Source: Candidatus Woesearchaeota archaeon
Lineage (GTDB): Archaea; Nanobdellota; Nanobdellia; Woesearchaeales; UBA10216
DNA length: 64,000 bases
Direction: 5' to 3'
Assembly (NCBI GenBank): GCA_016180085.1
Contig: JACPBX010000003.1
Coordinates: 2,652-66,651 of the forward strand
In this document: piece by piece, positions 15,744 through 23,773 of the stretch
How positions within the stretch are numbered: position 1 is the first letter of the stretch
Layout: each line of letters begins with the position of its first letter
Made by a program: the position numbers and the translations under genes
The notes under the pieces: model-generated
What the model saw: the letters and a program-made list of their open reading frames with translations, nothing else
Databases searched by the model: none
Told to the model about the DNA's origin: nothing

Positions 15744-16346
15744 ATGGTTGATGAGGCAGTTGTGAAGGAAAAGCTCGGGCAGGGCTGCCTGAGGATTAAT
15801 ATGGTCATCGAGATAGTTGGCGCTCCGAAGGAGCACGTTGAGGACACCCTGCGCCTGGTTCTGAAAAAGCTGAGGGAGGAGAAGGGCGTTGACGTGCTTG
15901 GCGGAAAGGTCCACGAGCCAAAGCCGCAGGGCCCGTTTTTCAGCACCTTCGCTGAATTGGAAGTCCTCGTCAAGGACTTCGCAACTCTTATCAACGTCTG
16001 CTTCAATTACATGCCTTCGTCCATTGAAATTGTTGAGCCTGCACAGTTCAGGCTTTCGCCTCTCAACATATCAGACCTGTTTAACGACCTTCTTGGCAGG
16101 CTTCACGAGATTGACATGCGGCTCAAGAACACTAACGCTGCGAATATCCTGCTTGACAAAAACCTCAACAACCTGCTGAAAAATGCAGTCCTCATAATTC
16201 TCGGCTCCGGCTCAAAGACGCTTGGCGAGCTGTCGGTCAAGGTTGGCATTGCGGAACAGCAGCTTGAGCCTTTCCTTGCAAAGTTTGCTGATGAAAAGGT
16301 GGTAAGGAAGGACGGCCACCACTACACAGCCCTTGTCAGGATGTAA
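15744..16346 (+). CDS. Hypothetical protein with C-terminal wHTH-like segment
   Basis: The ATG lies 24 nt after TATA ttttaaac and the composition looks coding. No family was recognised. Confidence 0.5.
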   Translation: MVDEAVVKEKLGQGCLRINMVIEIVGAPKEHVEDTLRLVLKKLREEKGVDVLGGKVHEPKPQGPFFSTFAELEVLVKDFATLINVCFNYMPSSIEIVEPAQFRLSPLNISDLFNDLLGRLHEIDMRLKNTNAANILLDKNLNNLLKNAVLIILGSGSKTLGELSVKVGIAEQQLEPFLAKFADEKVVRKDGHHYTALVRM

Positions 16347-16380
16347 AACTTTAATAATGGTCTCAGCAAATTACCTTCTC

Positions 16381-16986
16381 ATGGCCGAAACTGAAGCAAA
16401 GCAGCAGGATTTGAGGAAGCAGCTAGAAGCTGTTCTTTTCGCAGCTGGCAGGAAAATGCCAGCAGAAGAGCTCGCAAGGCTGTGCCGGACAACCGCCGTT
16501 GTAGTTCTGCAGCAGCTGCAGCAGCTGAAAAGCGAGTATGAAAGCAAGGATTCATCGCTGCTGCTGATAGACGAGGCTGACGGCTGGAAGCTCACAGTGC
16601 GGGAGCAGTATGCCCCTGTTGTGCAGAAGATTGTTGCCGAGACCGAGCTTACAAGGACTATGATTGAGACCCTTGCCGTAATCGCATGGAAGGCTCCGGT
16701 TCTGCAGTCTAACGTGATAAGAATAAGGACGAACAAGGCCTACGACCACCTCGCAGCCCTCGAAAAATCCGGTTTCATAACCAGGGAGAAGCACGGCAGG
16801 TCGAAGATGATAAAGCTTACCGAGCGCTTCTTCAAGTATTTCGACGTGAAAACAGGGCAGGAAGTCAAGGAAAAGTTCAAGGGTCTTGGTCCTGTGGCGG
16901 CAGAAACAGCCACAGAAGCCACAGCAGTCGCAGCTGCTGCGGAAAAGCAGGCTGGCAGCGTAAGTGATGAAAATGTTCCTTCTTGA
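16381..16986 (+). CDS. scpB: Segregation and condensation protein B
   Basis: LEAVLFAAGRKMPAEELA and a tandem wHTH pattern. TATA tttaataa lies about 24 nt upstream of ATG 16381. Confidence 0.8.
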   Translation: MAETEAKQQDLRKQLEAVLFAAGRKMPAEELARLCRTTAVVVLQQLQQLKSEYESKDSSLLLIDEADGWKLTVREQYAPVVQKIVAETELTRTMIETLAVIAWKAPVLQSNVIRIRTNKAYDHLAALEKSGFITREKHGRSKMIKLTERFFKYFDVKTGQEVKEKFKGLGPVAAETATEATAVAAAAEKQAGSVSDENVPS

Positions 16987-17629: not shown

Positions 17630-20600
17630 ATGCCTGAATCTGCAGCTGAAAAAAGCCCTGAAAAGCCTTCTGAAGATATTGTAAAATCCTCCATAGTCAA
17701 CAGGGAGATTGAGGAGGAGATGAAGTCTTCTTACCTGGACTATGCCATGTCTGTCCTTGTTTCAAGGGCATTGCCTGACGTCCGCGACGGGTTAAAGCCT
17801 GTTCAGAGGAGGATTCTTTTTGCCATGCTTGATTTGGGCCTGCAGCACAACAAGCCTCATAGGAAATCTGCAAGGATAGTTGGGGAGTGCTTTGTAAAAG
17901 ACACGGTTGTTTTAACTGAAAGGGGGCTTATGCCTATTCAGAGCATTAAAGTAGGGGATCGTGTTTTTACGCAGAAAGGCATAAAAAAGGTCACTGAACT
18001 CTATGAAATGCCTGAACGAGATCTTTTGCGTGTTGAACTGAGTGGAGGCTACAATAACATTGTTACTCCAGCCCAGAAGTTTAGAGTGATAAATTCCGAT
18101 ATGACATTTAGCTGGAAAGAGGCTAAAGACTTAACTGAAGCGGATTATTTAGTGGTTAAGGCGGACTATCCAGAAATAAGGCAATGTGCGTCTCTCAAAC
18201 CTATAAAAGAGGGTTTTCCAAATAAGCTTAATGAGGACATTGCTTACCTGCTCGGTTTTTTTATTTCAGATGGCTGGGTAGAGAAGGCTACAGGAAGGTT
18301 CGGCTTTTACTCTGCCAGCAGGGCCGTAATTGAAAGGATTTCCTCTATTATAGCAAAACAGTTTGGCTATTCCTACCCTGTGCAAACCAAAGAGTATGAG
18401 CTAACTACAACCAGCCGGTTAGTCCTAATGAAGCAGGCATATCAGGTAAGGGTGAGTCATTACGATTTTACTGAGTTCTTTTCTGTAAATTTTGCGATAA
18501 GGACTGTAGGTGCATTCACGAAAACAATCCCTGAACAGATATTTTGCTCTCCAAAAAATGTTATCTATTCTTTTATTTCTGGACTAATAGATGGTGACGG
18601 AAGTATTCACGCCTCTAGGAATGTTATTAACTACGGTTCTGTATCAGAGCGGCTTATTAGTCAGATTCAAATGCTTTTGCTCTCACTTGGAGTCTTTTCG
18701 TCCCGTTATTCTCAAGTGTCACAGCGACATTTTGTGAATGGGCGATTTGTCCAGTCAAACTCCAAATTGCATTTTTTAGAAATTAAAGGTGATAGCTTGT
18801 TTACTCTGGGAAAGAATATTCGGCCGATAGATGAAGGAAAGTACGCCAGATTAAGTAGAATCCTTTCGTTTGGAAAATGTAAAAAACAAAATTTTGAAAT
18901 TATCCCCTATGCAGCTAAACATGTTTTCTCAGAGCTTTCTAATGCTCATTTAGGTGGCGGTTGGTATCTTGGAGAAGATGGCAAAAAGTTTAGACTTGGC
19001 ATTAAGCATAATTCGGGAATAAAGATACGTTACAAGAAGGATTTGCACTCACTTCCTCTAAGAAAATCCCAAATTGTTGAGTGGCATATTGCCGAAAAAT
19101 TAAAACGAATACAATCAAAATACGCTGCTCTTTTAGGAGAATTTTCATCCCACAAGCTCTTTTTTTTAAAGGTGAAATCAGTATTTCCGTCTCCGCCCGA
19201 AACCACTTATGATGTGCAAGTTGAAGATGATCACGAATTTGTAGCGAACGGTATGCTTTCCCACAATTGCCTAGGTAAATACCACCCGCACGGAGATACG
19301 GCTATTTACGACGCTTTGGTTAGGCTTGCCCAGCCTTTTTCTTTGCGTTACCCCTTGGTGGATGGTCAAGGAAATTTCGGTTCCCTCGATGGGGATGCGG
19401 CAGCGCATCAAAGGTACACTGAGGCGCGCATGACGCCAATTGCAGAGCTCCTTCTTGAGGACATTGACAAGGAAACAGTTGATTTTGCGAAGAACTTTGA
19501 CGGCAGCCTCGAGGAGCCTGTTGTGCTTCCCGGGAAGTTTCCCAACCTTCTTGTCAATGGCAGCTCAGGCATTGCTGTTGGCATGGCAACAAACATCCCT
19601 CCCCACAACCTGAAGGAAGTCATTTCGGCTATTACTGCTGCAATAAAAAATCCGCAGCTGCCTTTTGAGGACCTCATCAGGTTAATTCCGGGCCCTGACT
19701 TTCCCACCGGAGGGATTATTCACGGCACAGAGGGCATTGCTGAAGCTTACAGGACTGGAAGGGGGGTAATCAGGCTGAGGTCCAAGACGTCTTTTGAGCA
19801 TAAAAAGGACAGGACAAGCATAATTGTTTCGGAAATCCCTTACCAGGTTAACAAAAGCCTTCTTGTTGAGGAACTCGCTAATCTAGTCAGGGGCAAGGTT
19901 GTTACGGGCATTGAGGATATTCGCGATGAGAGCGACCGTGATGGAATTCGCGTTGTCATTGACCTGAAGAAGGAGGCCAATCCTGACACTGTCCTGAACC
20001 AGATGCTTGTCCACAGCAGGCTTGACAGCTCTTTCCCGATTGCGCTGGTTGCGCTTGTTGACAGAGTTCCTAAGCAGGTTGCGCTTCGCGGAATGATTGA
20101 CTCCTTCATTGGCCACAGGAAGGATGTTGTCAGGAAAAGGACTGCCTTCCTGCTGAGGAACGCCCGGGACAAGGCACACCTGCTTGAAGGCCTGCTCATA
20201 GCGCTTAGCAATCTTGATGGCGTTGTAAAGCTGATTAAGGGCAGCAGGGACACGGCTGCAGCAAAGAAATCGCTTGTTGAGCAGCTCTCTGTTTCGGTCA
20301 AGCAGGCCGAAGCCATCCTGGATATGAGGCTCCAGCGCCTGGTCTCCCTGGAGCAGCAGAGCATCAGGGACGAGCACCAGCAGCTGTTGAAGGACATCGC
20401 TGACTTCTCTTCCATACTTGCATCAGAGTCAAGAGTCTCTGACATAATAGTTTCTGAGCTTTCAGAAATTGCTCAGAAGCATGGCGATGCGAGAAGGACC
20501 CAGATAGTCGAGGCAGGTGAGGAGCTGCTTGCAGAGGACACCATCAAGCCAGAAGAGGTTGTTGTCACAGTCACTCATGCAGGCTACATCAAGCGCATCA

Positions 20601-21514
20601 GCGTTGATGCCTACAGGCAGCAGAGGAGGGGAGGAAAAGGCATCATAGCTGCAACGACCAAGGAGGGTGACTTCGTTGAAAACATCTTTGTTGCCAACAC
20701 GCACTCCTACATCCTTTTCTTCACAAGCCTGGGCATCGTTCATTGGCTCAAGGTTTACGAGGTTCCTGAGGCTTCAAGGTACGCCTCAGGCAAGGCAATA
20801 GTCAACCTGCTGCGGCTGCGGGAAAGCGAGAAGATTAGCGCTTTCATCCCTGTAAAGGAATTTGCCGGGAACCTCGTAATGATTACAAAGAACGGCACGA
20901 TAAAGAAGACAGAGCTTGCAGCTTATTCGAATCCGAGGAGGGGCGGCATAATAGCAATCACCCTGGAAGACAATGATGAGCTCATTAACGTCGCTTTGAC
21001 AACTGGCAGCCAGCAGCTTATCGTTGCAACGGCCAATGGTCTGGCAGTCAGGTTTAACGAGCAGGATGTCAGGCCTGTTGGGCGCTCAGCCAAGGGAGTC
21101 AGGGCAATCAGGCTTAGGGGCACTGATGCGGTAGTTGGCATGGTCGTAGCCAACGAGGCAGAGTCGCTGCTTACAATCACGGCCAATGGCTACGGCAAGC
21201 GAAGCCCGGTTGCGGATTATCGCCTGATTTCCAGGGGAGGTTCAGGCGTCATAAACATCCAGACCAGTGACAGAAATGGCCCGGTCGCTGCAATAGCTTC
21301 GGTAACCGACAATGATGACATTATTATTGTGAGCAAAAGCGGCAACATAGTGCGCATAGCTGCAAAGGGCATATCAGAGATTGGGAGGAACACCCAGGGA
21401 GTAACGCTCATGCGCCTTGAGCCTGGTGATTCTGTTGTTTCGATAGCCAAGGTTCCCAAGGACACTGCTAACGGCAGCGGCAATGGCGGCAACAACCATG
21501 AAAGCGCAATTTAA
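17630..21514 (+). CDS. gyrA: DNA gyrase subunit A, interrupted by an intein
   Basis: LPDVRDGLKPVQRR, KYHPHGD, QRYTEARM (catalytic Tyr) and C-terminal beta-pinwheel repeats. The exteins are continuous after removing 17888-19267. Confidence 0.95.
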   Translation: MPESAAEKSPEKPSEDIVKSSIVNREIEEEMKSSYLDYAMSVLVSRALPDVRDGLKPVQRRILFAMLDLGLQHNKPHRKSARIVGECFVKDTVVLTERGLMPIQSIKVGDRVFTQKGIKKVTELYEMPERDLLRVELSGGYNNIVTPAQKFRVINSDMTFSWKEAKDLTEADYLVVKADYPEIRQCASLKPIKEGFPNKLNEDIAYLLGFFISDGWVEKATGRFGFYSASRAVIERISSIIAKQFGYSYPVQTKEYELTTTSRLVLMKQAYQVRVSHYDFTEFFSVNFAIRTVGAFTKTIPEQIFCSPKNVIYSFISGLIDGDGSIHASRNVINYGSVSERLISQIQMLLLSLGVFSSRYSQVSQRHFVNGRFVQSNSKLHFLEIKGDSLFTLGKNIRPIDEGKYARLSRILSFGKCKKQNFEIIPYAAKHVFSELSNAHLGGGWYLGEDGKKFRLGIKHNSGIKIRYKKDLHSLPLRKSQIVEWHIAEKLKRIQSKYAALLGEFSSHKLFFLKVKSVFPSPPETTYDVQVEDDHEFVANGMLSHNCLGKYHPHGDTAIYDALVRLAQPFSLRYPLVDGQGNFGSLDGDAAAHQRYTEARMTPIAELLLEDIDKETVDFAKNFDGSLEEPVVLPGKFPNLLVNGSSGIAVGMATNIPPHNLKEVISAITAAIKNPQLPFEDLIRLIPGPDFPTGGIIHGTEGIAEAYRTGRGVIRLRSKTSFEHKKDRTSIIVSEIPYQVNKSLLVEELANLVRGKVVTGIEDIRDESDRDGIRVVIDLKKEANPDTVLNQMLVHSRLDSSFPIALVALVDRVPKQVALRGMIDSFIGHRKDVVRKRTAFLLRNARDKAHLLEGLLIALSNLDGVVKLIKGSRDTAAAKKSLVEQLSVSVKQAEAILDMRLQRLVSLEQQSIRDEHQQLLKDIADFSSILASESRVSDIIVSELSEIAQKHGDARRTQIVEAGEELLAEDTIKPEEVVVTVTHAGYIKRISVDAYRQQRRGGKGIIAATTKEGDFVENIFVANTHSYILFFTSLGIVHWLKVYEVPEASRYASGKAIVNLLRLRESEKISAFIPVKEFAGNLVMITKNGTIKKTELAAYSNPRRGGIIAITLEDNDELINVALTTGSQQLIVATANGLAVRFNEQDVRPVGRSAKGVRAIRLRGTDAVVGMVVANEAESLLTITANGYGKRSPVADYRLISRGGSGVINIQTSDRNGPVAAIASVTDNDDIIIVSKSGNIVRIAAKGISEIGRNTQGVTLMRLEPGDSVVSIAKVPKDTANGSGNGGNNHESAI
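17888..19267 (+). mobile_element. GyrA intein (460 aa) with LAGLIDADG homing endonuclease
   Basis: It starts with Cys (VGE|CFVKDTVVL) and ends SHN|C. LAGLIDADG blocks are LLGFFISDGWV and FISGLIDGDGSI. It is visibly more AT-rich than the exteins. Confidence 0.9.
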
Positions 21515-22445
21515 GGCTGCTGTCGCGACCCATCCCGGCTTTGAGGACATAGCCGCATTGGAAGTTAAGGAGCTTGTAGGTGCCAAAGCAACTATAGCCG
21601 CAGGAGAGAGGGTTGCTTTTCAAACCAAAAACTTAAATGATTTGTGCAAGCTCTGCTACTTGTCGCAGTCTGCGAATTCGGTTTTTCTTTTGCCGCAAAA
21701 AGCTCCCATTAACCCGTTTGAAATGGGTAAGAGGGAATACGAGGTCTTTGGCAGCAATGGTGGAATAAGCGGAAGCCTTTCCTATCTCATGTTGAGGGTC
21801 TCTGGCTACACCGGCAGGGAATCCCTATTTGACCCTTTCACAAGGTCAGGGACAATAGCAATTGAAGCAGCCCTTTTCAGCTCAGGATTCCCGGTCAACC
21901 GCTACCGCAAGGACTCTTTGGCTTCGGCTTTTTCCAAGTTGCCGCAGTTTTCAAAAGCTGACTTCAGTGAATTCTTCGCCGCAGCAGAAAAAGAAGCTTC
22001 CTCTGCTGCCAAAAAGCGTGTCAGAAGTTCAAAGCCGAAGATACTTTCCTCATCGCCTTCAATGCAGCATGTGCGGTTTGCAGAGAAAAACGCCAAAATA
22101 GCTGGTGTTAACAAGATTATCAGGTTCAGCCGCCTTGACATTGAGTGGCTTGATGCCAAGCTTGACGAGCGCTCAATCGATTTGGTTGTCAGTTATCCGC
22201 CGCAGTTTAAAAACAGCAACGATAAATTTGCAGCCGTAGAAAATGAGAAACTGCATAAAATGTACGTGGAATTCTTTTTCCATGCAGATTATTTCCTGAA
22301 AAAAGGTGGCTCAATCGTTTTTTTGCTGAAAAACAAGGCGGCAGTAGCAGCCATAGCTGCTAACCACAAGTTCAAGCCGAAGGTAATGAGGAAATTCAAG
22401 GTTGGCAGCGAGGATTTTGAGCTGGTTTCGTTTACAAAACTTTAA
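21498..22445 (+). CDS. THUMP-domain RNA methyltransferase-like protein
   Basis: The N-terminal THUMP-like region reads HPGFEDIAALEVKEL, and the C-terminus has DLVVSYPPQF (methylase motif IV-like). Overlaps the gyrA end. Confidence 0.65.
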   Translation: MKAQFKAAVATHPGFEDIAALEVKELVGAKATIAAGERVAFQTKNLNDLCKLCYLSQSANSVFLLPQKAPINPFEMGKREYEVFGSNGGISGSLSYLMLRVSGYTGRESLFDPFTRSGTIAIEAALFSSGFPVNRYRKDSLASAFSKLPQFSKADFSEFFAAAEKEASSAAKKRVRSSKPKILSSSPSMQHVRFAEKNAKIAGVNKIIRFSRLDIEWLDAKLDERSIDLVVSYPPQFKNSNDKFAAVENEKLHKMYVEFFFHADYFLKKGGSIVFLLKNKAAVAAIAANHKFKPKVMRKFKVGSEDFELVSFTKL

Positions 22446-22456
22446 AAAAGCCTTGT

Positions 22457-23773
22457 GTGTGCTTTCTGCTTATGATTGGCGGTGTTGAGGTTTTGGTCTG
22501 GGCCATGTATCTTCTTGGCCTGTACTTCACCATTTTCTGGCTCTACGCCTTTCTTGAGAGGTATGAGTTGTTCAGTGAGGAAGCCAGGGGCTCTGCCTCA
22601 GGCAAGAAAAAGCTTGGCCGTTATCCAAAGGTTTCTGTGATAATTCCCGCTTATAATGCTGAAGCAACTATAAGGGACTGCATCCTTTCCGTTGCTAACC
22701 TGGACTATCCAAAGGACAGGCTTGAAATAATGGTTGTCAACGACGGCTCTACAGACAGCACAGCATCAATTGTTTCTGAGCTAATTCGCAGCTGCAAAGG
22801 CGCTGATATAAAATTAATGAGCCAGGAAAACCTTGGCAAGGGCGCTGCCATGAACAATGCTATACGTGCCTGCTCCGGGGAATTTTTCGCCTGCCTTGAT
22901 TCAGACTCTTTTGTTGAGCCTGAAACCCTGCAGAAGATGCTTCATGTTTTCGAGCAGCACGACAGCGAGCTTGCTATTGTGACTCCGGCAATGAAAGTTT
23001 TCAAGCCAAAAAGCTTCCTGCAGAAGTTCCAGCGCCTTGAGTACATCGTCACGCTCTTCTCCAACCGGTTATTGTCGCACTTCGATGCCCTTTACGTTGC
23101 GCCGGGGCCGTTCAGCCTCTACAGGAAAAGCATTGTGACGGACCTTGGCGGCTTTGATGAGCACAACCTTACCGAGGACCAGGAAATAGGCTACAGGATG
23201 CAGAAGCACAATTACAGGCTTAAGCACTGTTTTGACGCTTATGTTTACACGACAGCGCCGAGCAACGTAGGGCAGCTTTACAGGCAGCGCAGCAGGTGGT
23301 GGAGGGGAAGCTTGCTGAACTTTGTCAGTTACAAGTCACTGTTCCTGAATCCGAAGTACGGCCATTTCGGCGTTTTTCAGCTCCCAATGATTATGCTCGG
23401 CTATGTAACTGTCTGCTTTGTGGTTTTTTTCTTCACTTATTTCACAATCCTGCCTTGGTGGCAGAGGTTTTATGAGCTTTACCTTGTCGGGTTTGACCTG
23501 CCAACCCTGTTAAGGGGCATTAAGCTATCTTTTGATGTTTTAAGGTATGACTTCGGCAAGGTCTTCATAATATTCACCCTCACGGCACTCGCCATTACGA
23601 CCTTCCTTCTCGCTCACAGGAGCAGCAGGGAGGCTGTTTTCAAGCACGGCCTGGTTTATCTGCCGTTCTACTTCTTGTTCTACTACATACTTCTGTCATT
23701 CATTTACGTGGCTGCCGCTGTTCAGTTGGTTGTTTCGGGGAGGAAGGATAAATGGCTGGGAAAATCTATCTGA
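22457..23773 (+). CDS. Membrane-embedded processive GT2 glycosyltransferase
   Basis: IIPAYNAE, DSD, TEDQE and QRSRWWRG (QxxRW), flanked by TM helices. Confidence 0.8.
   Translation: MCFLLMIGGVEVLVWAMYLLGLYFTIFWLYAFLERYELFSEEARGSASGKKKLGRYPKVSVIIPAYNAEATIRDCILSVANLDYPKDRLEIMVVNDGSTDSTASIVSELIRSCKGADIKLMSQENLGKGAAMNNAIRACSGEFFACLDSDSFVEPETLQKMLHVFEQHDSELAIVTPAMKVFKPKSFLQKFQRLEYIVTLFSNRLLSHFDALYVAPGPFSLYRKSIVTDLGGFDEHNLTEDQEIGYRMQKHNYRLKHCFDAYVYTTAPSNVGQLYRQRSRWWRGSLLNFVSYKSLFLNPKYGHFGVFQLPMIMLGYVTVCFVVFFFTYFTILPWWQRFYELYLVGFDLPTLLRGIKLSFDVLRYDFGKVFIIFTLTALAITTFLLAHRSSREAVFKHGLVYLPFYFLFYYILLSFIYVAAAVQLVVSGRKDKWLGKSI

What the first reader, a model, noticed from the sequence alone, without database searches (positions are those of the whole stretch)
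17888..19267. GyrA intein at a non-classical insertion site, lacking the block-B histidine, and compositionally foreign
Seen: a 460-aa Cys1...His-Asn|Cys+1 intein with two LAGLIDADG blocks splits ...KSARIVGE | (C)LGKYHPHGD.... That is five residues before the YHPHGD motif.

Established: the well-known mycobacterial GyrA inteins (for example Mxe GyrA) sit immediately after the catalytic tyrosine (RY|C...N|TEAR). That site is uninterrupted here (QRYTEARM, about 19408-19434), so this is a different insertion point.

At the expected block-B TxxH position the sequence reads IVTPAQKF (Gln instead of His), which is unusual for a splicing-competent intein. By eye the intein is markedly more AT-rich than the flanking gyrA exteins, suggesting recent horizontal invasion. 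Gyrase is essential where present, so the intein must still splice.
Basis: partly seen in the sequence, partly recalled or inferred. Interest (0 to 1): 0.6.

Follow-up and report, generated by a model that had tools for sequence, protein, structure and literature searches.

The report
Histidine-less gyrase intein, recently acquired
The DNA gyrase A gene of this small uncultured archaeon carries a real, intact self-splicing intein that moved in recently from another lineage, and it belongs to a very large family that always has glutamine where inteins normally have their most conserved catalytic histidine.

Summary
gyrA (17630-21514, +) carries a 460-aa intein at 17888-19267, spliced as KSARIVGE|C...SHN|CLGKYHPHGD. 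It has two LAGLIDADG motifs, and the catalytic-tyrosine site is uninterrupted.

The insertion site is non-classical but not rare. Thousands of GyrA proteins from uncultured bacteria and archaea carry a homologous intein at exactly this site, and so do cultured Actinobacteria.

The missing block-B histidine is real. Gln63 aligns with the block-B His of solved inteins. It is not a defect of this copy: all 109 protein hits and all 105 genome loci at this site read T-x-x-Q. I found only three related inteins at this site with His. Reviews from 2014 and 2020 list only two inteins without this His, and I found no paper describing this family.

The foreign composition is highly significant. GC3 is 0.354, against 0.557±0.022 expected for the same protein under host codon usage (z = -9).

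The intein is 94% identical in DNA to the copy in a related genome (gyrA exteins as diverged as in same-genus genomes) (dS 0.18), while the flanking gyrA is about 75% identical (dS 1.46). Five same-genus genomes have the site empty. This points to recent homing.

Purifying selection acts on the intein (omega 0.19), so it is very probably active. Splicing itself is untested.

The parts
17630..21514 (+). gyrA precursor ORF (1294 aa including the intein). It is the only gyrA in the genome.
   Evidence: NCBIfam GyrA equivalogs pass their cut-offs: NF004043 scores 1132 (cut-off 902) and TIGR01063 scores 1102 (cut-off 877). The genome has a single gyrA. An intact gyrB lies on another contig.
17630..17887 (+). 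N-extein (86 aa), ending KSARIVGE. The -1 residue is Glu.
17888..19267 (+). Intein of 460 aa, class-1 type: Cys1 ... His459-Asn460, followed by Cys+1.
   Evidence: AlphaFold2 model with pLDDT 91.6 and pTM 0.90. Foldseek top hits are the TliVMA intein 7qss (E 2.6e-24), PI-PfuI and PI-SceI.
17888..17926 (+). Block A (CFVKDTVVLTERG). Cys1, Phe2 and Gly13 are invariant in the 28-sequence alignment A1; Phe2 is Leu in the three His-bearing same-site relatives.
18065..18076 (+). Block B core T-P-A-Q. Thr60 (B:7) is kept; Gln63 (codon CAG) stands at B:10 in place of the canonical His.
18242..18280 (+). LAGLIDADG motif 1 (AYLLGFFISDGWV); the acidic residue is Asp128.
18572..18607 (+). LAGLIDADG motif 2 (FISGLIDGDGSI). 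Gly236, Asp237 and Gly238 are invariant in the family.
19202..19267 (+). Blocks F and G (TTYDVQVEDDHEFVANGMLSHN). Asp442, His449, His459 and Asn460 are invariant.
19268..21511 (+). C-extein starting with Cys+1 (CLGKYHPHGD...). It contains the uninterrupted catalytic Tyr596 (19415-19417) and the GyrA C-terminal beta-propeller.

Best explanation
This is an intact, very probably splicing-competent class-1 intein with a nested LAGLIDADG homing endonuclease. It sits in gyrA of a roughly 1-Mb DPANN/Nanoarchaeota genome, between the residues equivalent to E. coli GyrA D72 and V73 (my own count, from remembered E. coli numbering). That position is in the quinolone-resistance region, four residues before YHPHGD.

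**How it works (inferred).** The precursor is translated whole. Cys1 makes the N-S acyl shift and Cys+1 takes over the N-extein. Asn460 then cyclises with help from His459, which releases the intein and ligates KSARIVGE to CLGKYHPHGD to give active GyrA. The free intein's endonuclease cuts intein-less gyrA alleles, and repair copies the intein in (homing).

**What is shown here.**
- The anatomy of the element.
- The conservation of its residues.
- Purifying selection on both the splicing and the endonuclease parts.
- Empty sites in same-genus genomes.
- A much younger age of the intein than of its host gene, together with a strongly deviant codon composition. This means horizontal acquisition after the host lineages split.

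**The special feature.** Block-B position 10, the 'most conserved intein residue' (His), is Gln. It is Gln in essentially the whole intein family at this site, in both Bacteria and Archaea.

**Most likely mechanism of step 1 (inferred).** Step 1 is activated without an imidazole. The Gln63 side-chain amide, with the retained Thr60 (B:7) and Asp442 (block F), would hydrogen-bond to and strain the scissile Glu-1/Cys1 peptide bond and stabilise the tetrahedral intermediate. Phe2 and Trp76 (invariant in the Gln-bearing members), and the always-acidic -1 extein residue, may help. Splicing and homing activity themselves are inferred, not shown.
For: **Anatomy**
- Sequence and domain anatomy.
- HINT plus LAGLIDADG fold predicted with pLDDT 91.6. 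The best structural matches are TliVMA, PI-PfuI and PI-SceI inteins.

**Family and site**
- 7997 of 8000 scored candidates match residues 60-580 at E <= 0.001. The top 120 are about 50% identical and almost all show GE|C...HN|CLGKYHPHGD.
Hosts include cultured Actinobacteria, Methylococcaceae, Acidobacteria, Desulfurobacteriaceae, CPR bacteria, Omnitrophota, Thermoplasmatota, Methanomassiliicoccales and Asgard archaea.

**Gln at B:10**
- Thr60 and Gln63 are invariant in an alignment of 28 sequences that are 41-55% identical to each other.
- 109 of 109 protein hits and 105 of 105 complete loci have T-x-x-Q.
- Gln aligns with His of TliVMA (TPIH), PI-PfuI and gp41-1.
- It also aligns with His in three same-site relatives, P0145, P0156 and P0221.
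- The other three complete inteins of this genome (in a FlaI-like ATPase, LonB and RtcB) have the normal His.

**Function**
- Intein omega is 0.19 and its endonuclease part 0.20. Extein omega is 0.10.
- There is a single gyrA and an intact gyrB.

**Recent transfer**
- Against L027 (another Nanoarchaeota MAG), intein DNA is 94% identical and third positions 89%. The exteins are 75-79% identical and third positions 51%. The break is sharp at both junctions.
- dS is 0.18 for the intein and 1.46 for the C-extein.
- Same-genus genomes G003, G006, G007, G008 and G010 have the site empty.

**Composition**
- GC3 is 0.354, against 0.557±0.022 expected for the same protein under host codon usage (z = -9.2).
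- 0 of 542 host 460-codon segments are as low.
- The intein lies in the lowest 1.1% of 1380-nt genome windows.
- The other inteins of the genome have GC3 0.46-0.50.
Against: - No experiment shows splicing or endonuclease activity.
- Part of the AT shift is a general property of this intein family. In 92 other hosts the intein's GC3 is on average 9 points below the C-extein. Composition alone would therefore overstate how recent the invasion is. Here the gap is 22 points, which only 7.6% of hosts reach.
- The catalytic role proposed for Gln63, Phe2, Trp76 and Glu-1 rests on conservation and analogy only. I could not read the model coordinates to measure distances.
- The direction and date of the transfer, and the donor, are unknown. 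The only close relative in 5.8 billion proteins is P0002.
- The genome is a MAG. However, the gene lies inside a long contig (147 kb).
Confidence: 0.85

Rival explanations
1. The intein is vertically inherited and old. The empty sites in relatives are losses, and the low GC reflects only relaxed selection or an intrinsic AT bias of inteins. There was no recent horizontal invasion.
For: In 86% of 92 other hosts this intein family has lower GC3 than its extein, by 9 points on average. The other inteins of this genome are also somewhat AT-shifted. Some intein-free relatives have Cys-Leu at +1/+2, like occupied alleles. That could be a scar left by precise intein loss.
Against: Synonymous divergence between the two intein copies is 0.18, against 1.46 for the flanking gene, and the break is sharp at both junctions. 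Vertical descent predicts equal or higher dS in the intein. GC3 lies 9 standard deviations below the host expectation and is more extreme than in 92% of other hosts.
Confidence: 0.05
2. The intein is degenerate. Loss of the block-B His has inactivated or crippled splicing, so this gyrA is a pseudogene or needs a helper.
For: His B:10 is essential in many studied inteins (PMC6333167; PMC7765530). One of the two known His-less inteins is a pseudogene (PMC4031507).
Against: - Gln is invariant across thousands of copies in two domains of life.
- All other splicing residues are invariant.
- The reading frame is open.
- Omega is 0.19 for the intein and 0.10 for the exteins.
- There is only one gyrA, and gyrB is intact.
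Confidence: 0.04
3. Gln63 is a tolerated placeholder and not a catalytic substitute. Step 1 is driven by other features: strain imposed by Phe2 and Trp76 packing, the acidic -1 residue, or the block F Asp/His. This would resemble the steric compensation seen in the Ssp DnaB M86 intein.
For: Bulky -1 residues can compensate for loss of His B:10 in an engineered intein (PMC6333167). The -1 residue here is always Glu or Asp. Phe2 and Trp76 are invariant in the Gln-bearing members of the alignments I examined. Position 2 is Leu in all three His-bearing relatives (P0221, and P0145 with P0156), and position 76 is Phe in P0145 and P0156.
Against: A mere placeholder would be expected to vary. Yet Gln is strictly invariant over sequences down to about 30% identity, while its neighbour B:11 varies (K, R, M, Q, L, P).
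Confidence: 0.25

Closest known systems
Mycobacterial GyrA inteins (Mxe, Mle GyrA; PDB 1AM2; NCBIfam NF038098 GyrA_w_intein)
   Same: Same host protein. Both are class-1 inteins with Cys1 and a C-terminal His-Asn. Relatives of this genome (G001, G002, G014, G023, G028) carry inteins at that classical site after the catalytic Tyr.
   Different: - The insertion site differs: 50 residues upstream, before YHPHGD.
- Identity to the classical-site inteins of relatives is only about 28%.
- NF038098 scores 908 bits against a cut-off of 1850.
- Classical-site inteins have the canonical block-B His (G-S-x-N-H-P).
- The +1 residue is Cys here and Thr there.
Archaeal LAGLIDADG inteins with solved structures: TliVMA/PhoVMA (7qss, 7qsu, 7qst), PI-PfuI (1dq3), PI-PkoII (2cw7), PI-SceI
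   Same: Best sequence and fold matches: 7qss has Foldseek E 2.6e-24 and TM 0.67-0.70, and profile E 4e-13. The architecture is the same: a HINT splicing domain with an inserted two-motif LAGLIDADG endonuclease.
   Different: Those inteins have His at B:10 (for example TPIH in TliVMA), aligned with TPAQ here. They sit in different host genes. Sequence identity is 12-19%.
Tko CDC21-1 intein and orthologues (the one known active intein group without the block-B His)
   Same: A class-1 intein that naturally lacks His B:10 yet is (there) shown to be active (PMC4031507; PMC7765530).
   Different: Tko uses Lys58, which lies 23 residues past B:10, to activate the N-terminal junction (PMC4031507). By simple counting, the equivalent position here is Asp86, which is nearly invariant. 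The solution must therefore differ. The residue at B:10 here is an invariant Gln. The family is far larger and spans both domains of life.

Membership tests
Class-1 intein (HINT splicing domain) | N-terminal nucleophile (Cys or Ser at position 1) | tested here: met
   Cys1 at 17888-17890. It is invariant in the family.
Class-1 intein (HINT splicing domain) | Block B T-x-x-H (Thr B:7 and His B:10) | tested here: not met
   Thr60 is present. B:10 is Gln63, aligned with His of TliVMA, PI-PfuI and gp41-1 and of same-site relatives. This feature is nearly universal rather than strictly defining; an active exception is known (PMC4031507).
Class-1 intein (HINT splicing domain) | Block F Asp, and block G penultimate His plus terminal Asn | tested here: met
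   Asp442, His449, His459 and Asn460 are invariant. TIGR01443 intein_Cterm scores 24.9 against a cut-off of 15.6.
Class-1 intein (HINT splicing domain) | +1 nucleophile on the C-extein (Cys, Ser or Thr) | tested here: met
   Cys547 at 19268-19270.
Class-1 intein (HINT splicing domain) | HINT fold and family profile above threshold | tested here: met
   PF14890 scores 52.6 against 35.8. The AF2 model has pLDDT 91.6, and Foldseek hits to solved inteins reach E 1e-24.
Class-1 intein (HINT splicing domain) | Actual protein splicing | not testable with these tools
   Only indirect evidence: omega 0.19, an open frame, and a single gyrA.
Class-3 intein | WCT triplet with a block F Cys nucleophile | tested here: not met
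   The block F position reads Asp442 (TYDVQV), and Cys1 is present.
LAGLIDADG homing endonuclease (two-motif, intein-borne) | Two LAGLIDADG motifs, each with a conserved acidic residue | tested here: met
   FFISDGW (Asp128) and LIDGDGS (Asp237). PF14528 scores 68.8 against 22.5 with two stretches. The endonuclease part has omega 0.20.
LAGLIDADG homing endonuclease (two-motif, intein-borne) | Cleavage of the intein-less allele | not testable with these tools
   Empty target sites exist in same-genus genomes. The signature of recent transfer is consistent with activity.
Classical GyrA intein allele (NF038098 GyrA_w_intein, Mxe/Mle type) | Insertion directly after the catalytic Tyr (RY|C...N|TEAR) | tested here: not met
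   QRYTEARM is uninterrupted at 19409-19432. NF038098 scores 908 against a cut-off of 1850.
Tko CDC21-1-type His-less inteins | A compensating Lys 23 residues past B:10 | tested here: inconclusive
   By position count, residue 86 is a nearly invariant Asp, not Lys. No structural superposition was possible.
DNA gyrase subunit A | Equivalog profile above cut-off, catalytic Tyr, C-terminal beta-propeller repeats | tested here: met
   NF004043 scores 1132 against 902 and TIGR01063 scores 1102 against 877. There are six DNA_gyraseA_C repeats.

The most novel reading that the evidence does not exclude
The inteins at this GyrA site form a large clade, found in both Bacteria and Archaea, of naturally histidine-less class-1 inteins. 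They start splicing with an invariant Gln at block-B position 10. This would be a mechanistic solution distinct from the single known active case (Tko CDC21-1, which uses Lys58).

Nature has also supplied comparison cases. One His-bearing sister lineage exists (P0221). One His-bearing pair (P0145 and P0156) appears nested inside the Gln clade, with SH-like supports of 0.87-0.99. In that pair, His at B:10 co-occurs with Phe2->Leu, Trp76->Phe and penultimate His->Ser. This would define an epistatic network of residues that can replace the 'essential' histidine.
Probability: 0.35. Interest if true: 0.7.

Novelty: new variant of a known kind. Interest (0 to 1): 0.5.

Why it matters
The block-B histidine is described as the most conserved intein residue, essential for the first step of splicing in many inteins. 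Reviews list only one active exception. A family of thousands of natural inteins with Gln at that position, plus rare His-bearing relatives at the same site, gives an easy experimental system for asking how the N-S acyl shift can be catalysed without an imidazole. It might also yield inteins with different pH or metal sensitivity for protein engineering.

For this particular genome, the intein is a clean worked example of recent homing between co-existing DPANN archaea. Intein dS is 0.18 against 1.46 for the host gene, and empty sites persist in the same genus. The element is a selfish passenger in an otherwise ordinary gyrA. It does not change the annotation of the gene.

Tried and rejected
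- **Sequence search of the PDB with the intein alone.** It aligned only the endonuclease part, so the block-B question stayed open until the profile search.
- **Literature searches.** I searched for a catalogue of GyrA intein sites and for any mention of a Gln block B.
  - No paper describes this site or the Gln.
  - Novikova et al. 2016 (PMC4760082) list 50 GyrA inteins in Actinobacteria, Aquificae, Chloroflexi and Proteobacteria. Their site tables are not held, so I cannot say whether the site has a formal name.
  - The Tori 2012 paper is not held.
- **The search for related loci with the single protein.** It found only two real relatives; the alignment query was needed.
- **A regex screen that flagged five 'His' block-B cases among genome loci.** All five were false positives, caused by an upstream T-N-G-H or by T-H-G-Q. 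One flag in the tree labels (P0119) is the same artefact.
- **Class-3 intein and a degenerate intein.** Both rejected; see the membership and rival sections.
- **A MAG chimera as the source of the odd composition.** Rejected, because the same intein sits in frame in a different host gene in an independent assembly.
- **Model coordinates.** They are not exposed by the tools, so distances around Gln63 could not be measured.
Full report
**1. Observation**

The window has one long ORF at 17630..21514 (+), 1294 aa. Pfam splits it as follows:
- DNA_topoisoIV: residues 544-944 and a short N-terminal piece.
- Six DNA_gyraseA_C repeats.
- Between the two topoisomerase pieces: Intein_splicing (52.6 bits, cut-off 35.8), two LAGLIDADG_3 stretches (68.8 bits) and weak Hint hits.

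The intein is residues 87-546, nt 17888-19267, 460 aa. It is bounded by KSARIVGE|CFVKDT... and ...ANGMLSHN|CLGKYHPHGD. The junction lies four residues (not five) before YHPHGD.

The classical GyrA intein site is uninterrupted: QRYTEARM at 19409-19432, with the catalytic Tyr596 at 19415-19417.

NCBIfam GyrA equivalogs pass their cut-offs. The model for the mycobacterial intein-containing GyrA (NF038098) does not: 908 bits against 1850.

The genome is a roughly 1-Mb assembly of 45 contigs, about 83% complete. It has a single gyrA and an intact gyrB without an intein on another contig. The closest named relatives are Nanoarchaeota and Woesearchaeota MAGs.

**2. The insertion site is non-classical but very common**

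A search with residues 60-580 of the precursor returned 7997 proteins at E <= 0.001 among the 8000 candidates scored. The best 120 are GyrA proteins about 50% identical over the intein. Nearly all show the same junctions, G[ED]|C...HN|C[LM]GKYHPHGD.

Hosts found include:
- Uncultured lineages: Woesearchaeota, Nanoarchaeota, Micrarchaeota, Thermoplasmatota, Methanomassiliicoccales, Methanosarcinales, Methanophagales, Promethearchaeota, Omnitrophota, several CPR/Patescibacteria groups, Planctomycetales, Armatimonadota, Acidobacteria, Methylococcaceae, Rhodothermaceae, Desulfurobacteriaceae and Bipolaricaulota.
- Cultured Actinobacteria in RefSeq: Lentzea, Micromonospora, Amycolatopsis, Umezawaea, Actinokineospora, Saccharothrix, Kibdelosporangium, Kutzneria and Plantactinospora.

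At 50% clustering the family makes up most of the 46 representatives with E <= 1e-30.

So the site is a well-populated GyrA intein allele, not a rarity. Novikova et al. 2016 counted 50 GyrA inteins in Actinobacteria, Aquificae, Chloroflexi and Proteobacteria (PMC4760082). These very likely include this site, but their tables are not held. I therefore cannot say whether the site has a formal name.

In E. coli numbering (my own count from the known positions S83 and D87) the intein lies between D72 and V73, inside the quinolone-resistance-determining region.

**3. Block B really lacks the histidine, and so does the whole family**

In a 28-sequence alignment of inteins that are 41-55% identical to each other, the invariant residues include Cys1, Phe2, Gly13, Thr60, Gln63, Trp76, Asp442, His449, His459 and Asn460.

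A profile of that alignment against PDB sequences places v-T-P-S-Q-K-F on three solved inteins:
- V-T-P-I-H-K-L of the TliVMA intein.
- T-S-P-W-H-P-F of PI-PfuI.
- C-S-E-E-H of gp41-1.

Gln63 therefore stands at block-B position 10.

All 109 inteins cut from the protein hits read T-x-x-Q. So do all 105 loci with a complete N-terminus from the genome scan. Five apparent 'His' cases there were regex artefacts. The set includes actinobacterial copies (VTPGQRFR) and mini-inteins of 130-174 aa.

The representative search turned up three exceptions at the same site with His in the same alignment column:
- P0221 (S-T-P-D-H).
- P0145 and P0156 (S-T-Y-N-H and S-T-L-N-H).

In a quick FastTree, P0221 is sister to the whole Gln clade. 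P0145 and P0156 are nested within it, with supports of 0.87-0.99 on the relevant nodes. In that pair, His comes together with Leu2, Phe76 and a penultimate Ser, in place of Phe2, Trp76 and His. This is a lead, not a finding: it rests on two independent lineages and a fast tree.

The other three complete inteins of this genome sit in a FlaI-like ATPase, LonB and RtcB. All have the canonical His. So do the classical-site GyrA inteins of relatives.

[quoted passage not shown] One is a pseudogene. The other is Tko CDC21-1, which compensates with Lys58 (PMC4031507; PMC7765530; PMC6333167). I found no paper that mentions a Gln block B or this family.

**4. Fold**

AlphaFold2 with the 28-sequence alignment gives a confident model: mean pLDDT 91.6, pTM 0.90. 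Foldseek ranks TliVMA (7qss, E 2.6e-24, TM 0.67/0.70), PI-PfuI, PhoVMA, PI-PkoII and PI-SceI first. Free-standing LAGLIDADG enzymes and mini-inteins follow. Coordinates are not exposed, so I could not measure the environment of Gln63.

**5. Composition**

Basic values:

| Region | GC | GC3 |
|---|---|---|
| Intein | 39.1% | 0.354 |
| C-extein | 52.0% | 0.585 |
| N-extein | 47.3% | 0.51 |
| Genome | 48.7% | not computed (host genes: mean 0.55) |

- Only 1.1% of 1380-nt windows of the genome are as AT-rich as the intein.
- I re-encoded the intein's own protein sequence with the host's codon usage. The expected GC3 is 0.557±0.022, so the observed value lies 9.2 standard deviations below it. The exteins lie within 2.5 standard deviations of their expectations.
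- None of 542 460-codon segments of host genes is as low; the minimum is 0.376.
- The three other inteins of the genome are only mildly shifted: GC3 0.46-0.50 against 0.56-0.61 for their exteins.

One caveat applies. Across 92 other hosts, this intein family averages 9 GC3 points below its C-extein, and it is lower in 86% of hosts. A modest AT shift is therefore a family trait. The 22-point gap here is matched or exceeded in only 7.6% of hosts.

**6. Recent horizontal transfer**

The only close relative is P0002, from another Nanoarchaeota MAG (GCA_038044465.1; locus L027). The codon-aligned comparison gives:

| Region | DNA identity | Third-position identity | dS | omega |
|---|---|---|---|---|
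| Intein | 94% | 89% | 0.18 | 0.19 |
| N-extein | 79% | 52% | not computed | not computed |
| C-extein | 75% | 51% | 1.46 | 0.10 |

- The change is abrupt within about 40 codons of each junction.
- The endonuclease part of the intein has omega 0.20.
- The L027 copy has the same low GC (38.7%) in a host gene of 49.5%.

The distribution among relatives is patchy:
- **Site empty:** five same-genus genomes (G003, G006, G007, G008, G010). They read GD|TMGKYHPHGD or GD|CLGKYHPHGD.
- **Intein at the classical Tyr site instead:** G001, G002, G014, G023 and G028.
- **Same-site intein, only about 55% identical:** G011 and G026.

Together these results show that the intein entered this lineage, or moved between it and the L027 lineage, long after the hosts diverged. 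They also show that it is under purifying selection in both its splicing and its endonuclease parts. The Cys-Leu at +1/+2 in some empty alleles may be a scar of earlier occupancy; this is inference.

**7. Mechanism**

*Shown:*
- Class-1 anatomy: Cys1, Thr B:7, block-F Asp442, His449, His459-Asn460 and Cys+1.
- HINT plus LAGLIDADG fold.
- Both LAGLIDADG acidic residues.
- Selection on the element.
- Mobility of the element.

*Inferred:*
- The standard four-step splicing pathway operates.
- Homing occurs by cleavage of the empty allele.
- Step 1 is activated without an imidazole, most likely as follows:
  - The Gln63 carboxamide hydrogen-bonds to the scissile Glu-1/Cys1 peptide or to its tetrahedral intermediate.
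  - Thr60 and Asp442 contribute.
  - Phe2 and Trp76 may contribute by packing.
  - The always-acidic -1 residue may contribute. It is Asp in 55 loci and Glu in 50.

Steric compensation by the -1 residue has a precedent in an engineered intein (PMC6333167). The Tko solution does not seem to apply: a Lys 23 residues past B:10 would correspond to position 86, which here is a nearly invariant Asp. This is by residue count only.

**8. Verdict**

The site, however, is common, and the Gln is a family rule rather than a defect. The element itself is an ordinary selfish intein.

Two points deserve attention:
- The family-wide Gln appears to be undescribed in the papers I could search. Earlier reports of this scan reached the same view for other genomes. 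Those are not independent evidence, and I re-tested the claim here.
- This genome gives an unusually clean signature of recent homing.

Noticed in passing
Own genome outside the window: G000 C29:42027-43958 (+), C20:14162-17644 (+), C15:9987-12989 (reverse-strand coordinates), and a fragment at the end of C15: This 1-Mb genome carries at least four more inteins. They sit in a FlaI/VirB11-like ATPase (460 aa, Ser1...HN|S), LonB (511 aa, after GDPGTGK), RtcB (501 aa, ends SN|C), and a gene cut by a contig end that looks like topoisomerase VI B. All have the canonical block-B His and only mildly lowered GC3.
   Followed up: partly
Relatives G001 (L023), G002, G014, G023, G028; proteins P0003-P0007, P0016, P0018: The same genus and order also use the classical gyrA site: RY|C...HN|TEAR, with block B G-S-x-N-H-P. 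Many GyrA proteins of 1700-1800 aa carry two inteins, one at the site studied here plus one at the Tyr site.
   Followed up: partly
Proteins P0017, P0025, P0027, P0042, P0061, P0104, P0106, P0113, P0118: A third gyrA intein site exists. A second intein starts right after GQGNFG (GQGNFG|CFTKDT...), between the site studied here and the catalytic Tyr.
   Followed up: no
Loci L020, L021, L025 (intein-free gyrA of relatives): Some empty alleles read GD-CL-GKYHPHGD, with the same Cys-Leu as occupied alleles. Others read GD-TM-GKYHPHGD. The Cys-Leu may be a scar of precise intein loss, or a co-conversion tract.
   Followed up: no
Proteins P0145, P0156, P0221: These are rare same-site inteins with the canonical His at B:10. 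In P0145 and P0156, His co-occurs with Leu2, Phe76 and a penultimate Ser (SN|C), and the pair appears nested in the Gln clade.
   Followed up: partly
Window 16333-16986 (+), 21483-22445 (+), 22457-23773 (+): The neighbours of gyrA are ordinary genes: ScpB, an RMKL-like (UPF0020) methyltransferase whose start overlaps the end of gyrA by 32 nt, and a family-2 glycosyltransferase.
   Followed up: no
Own genome, e.g. C45:420-1200, C41:669-1293, C22:71093-71672 (just outside the window), C15:42243-43314: About a dozen other ORFs have GC3 at or below 0.35, so they may be further foreign DNA. I did not examine them.
   Followed up: no
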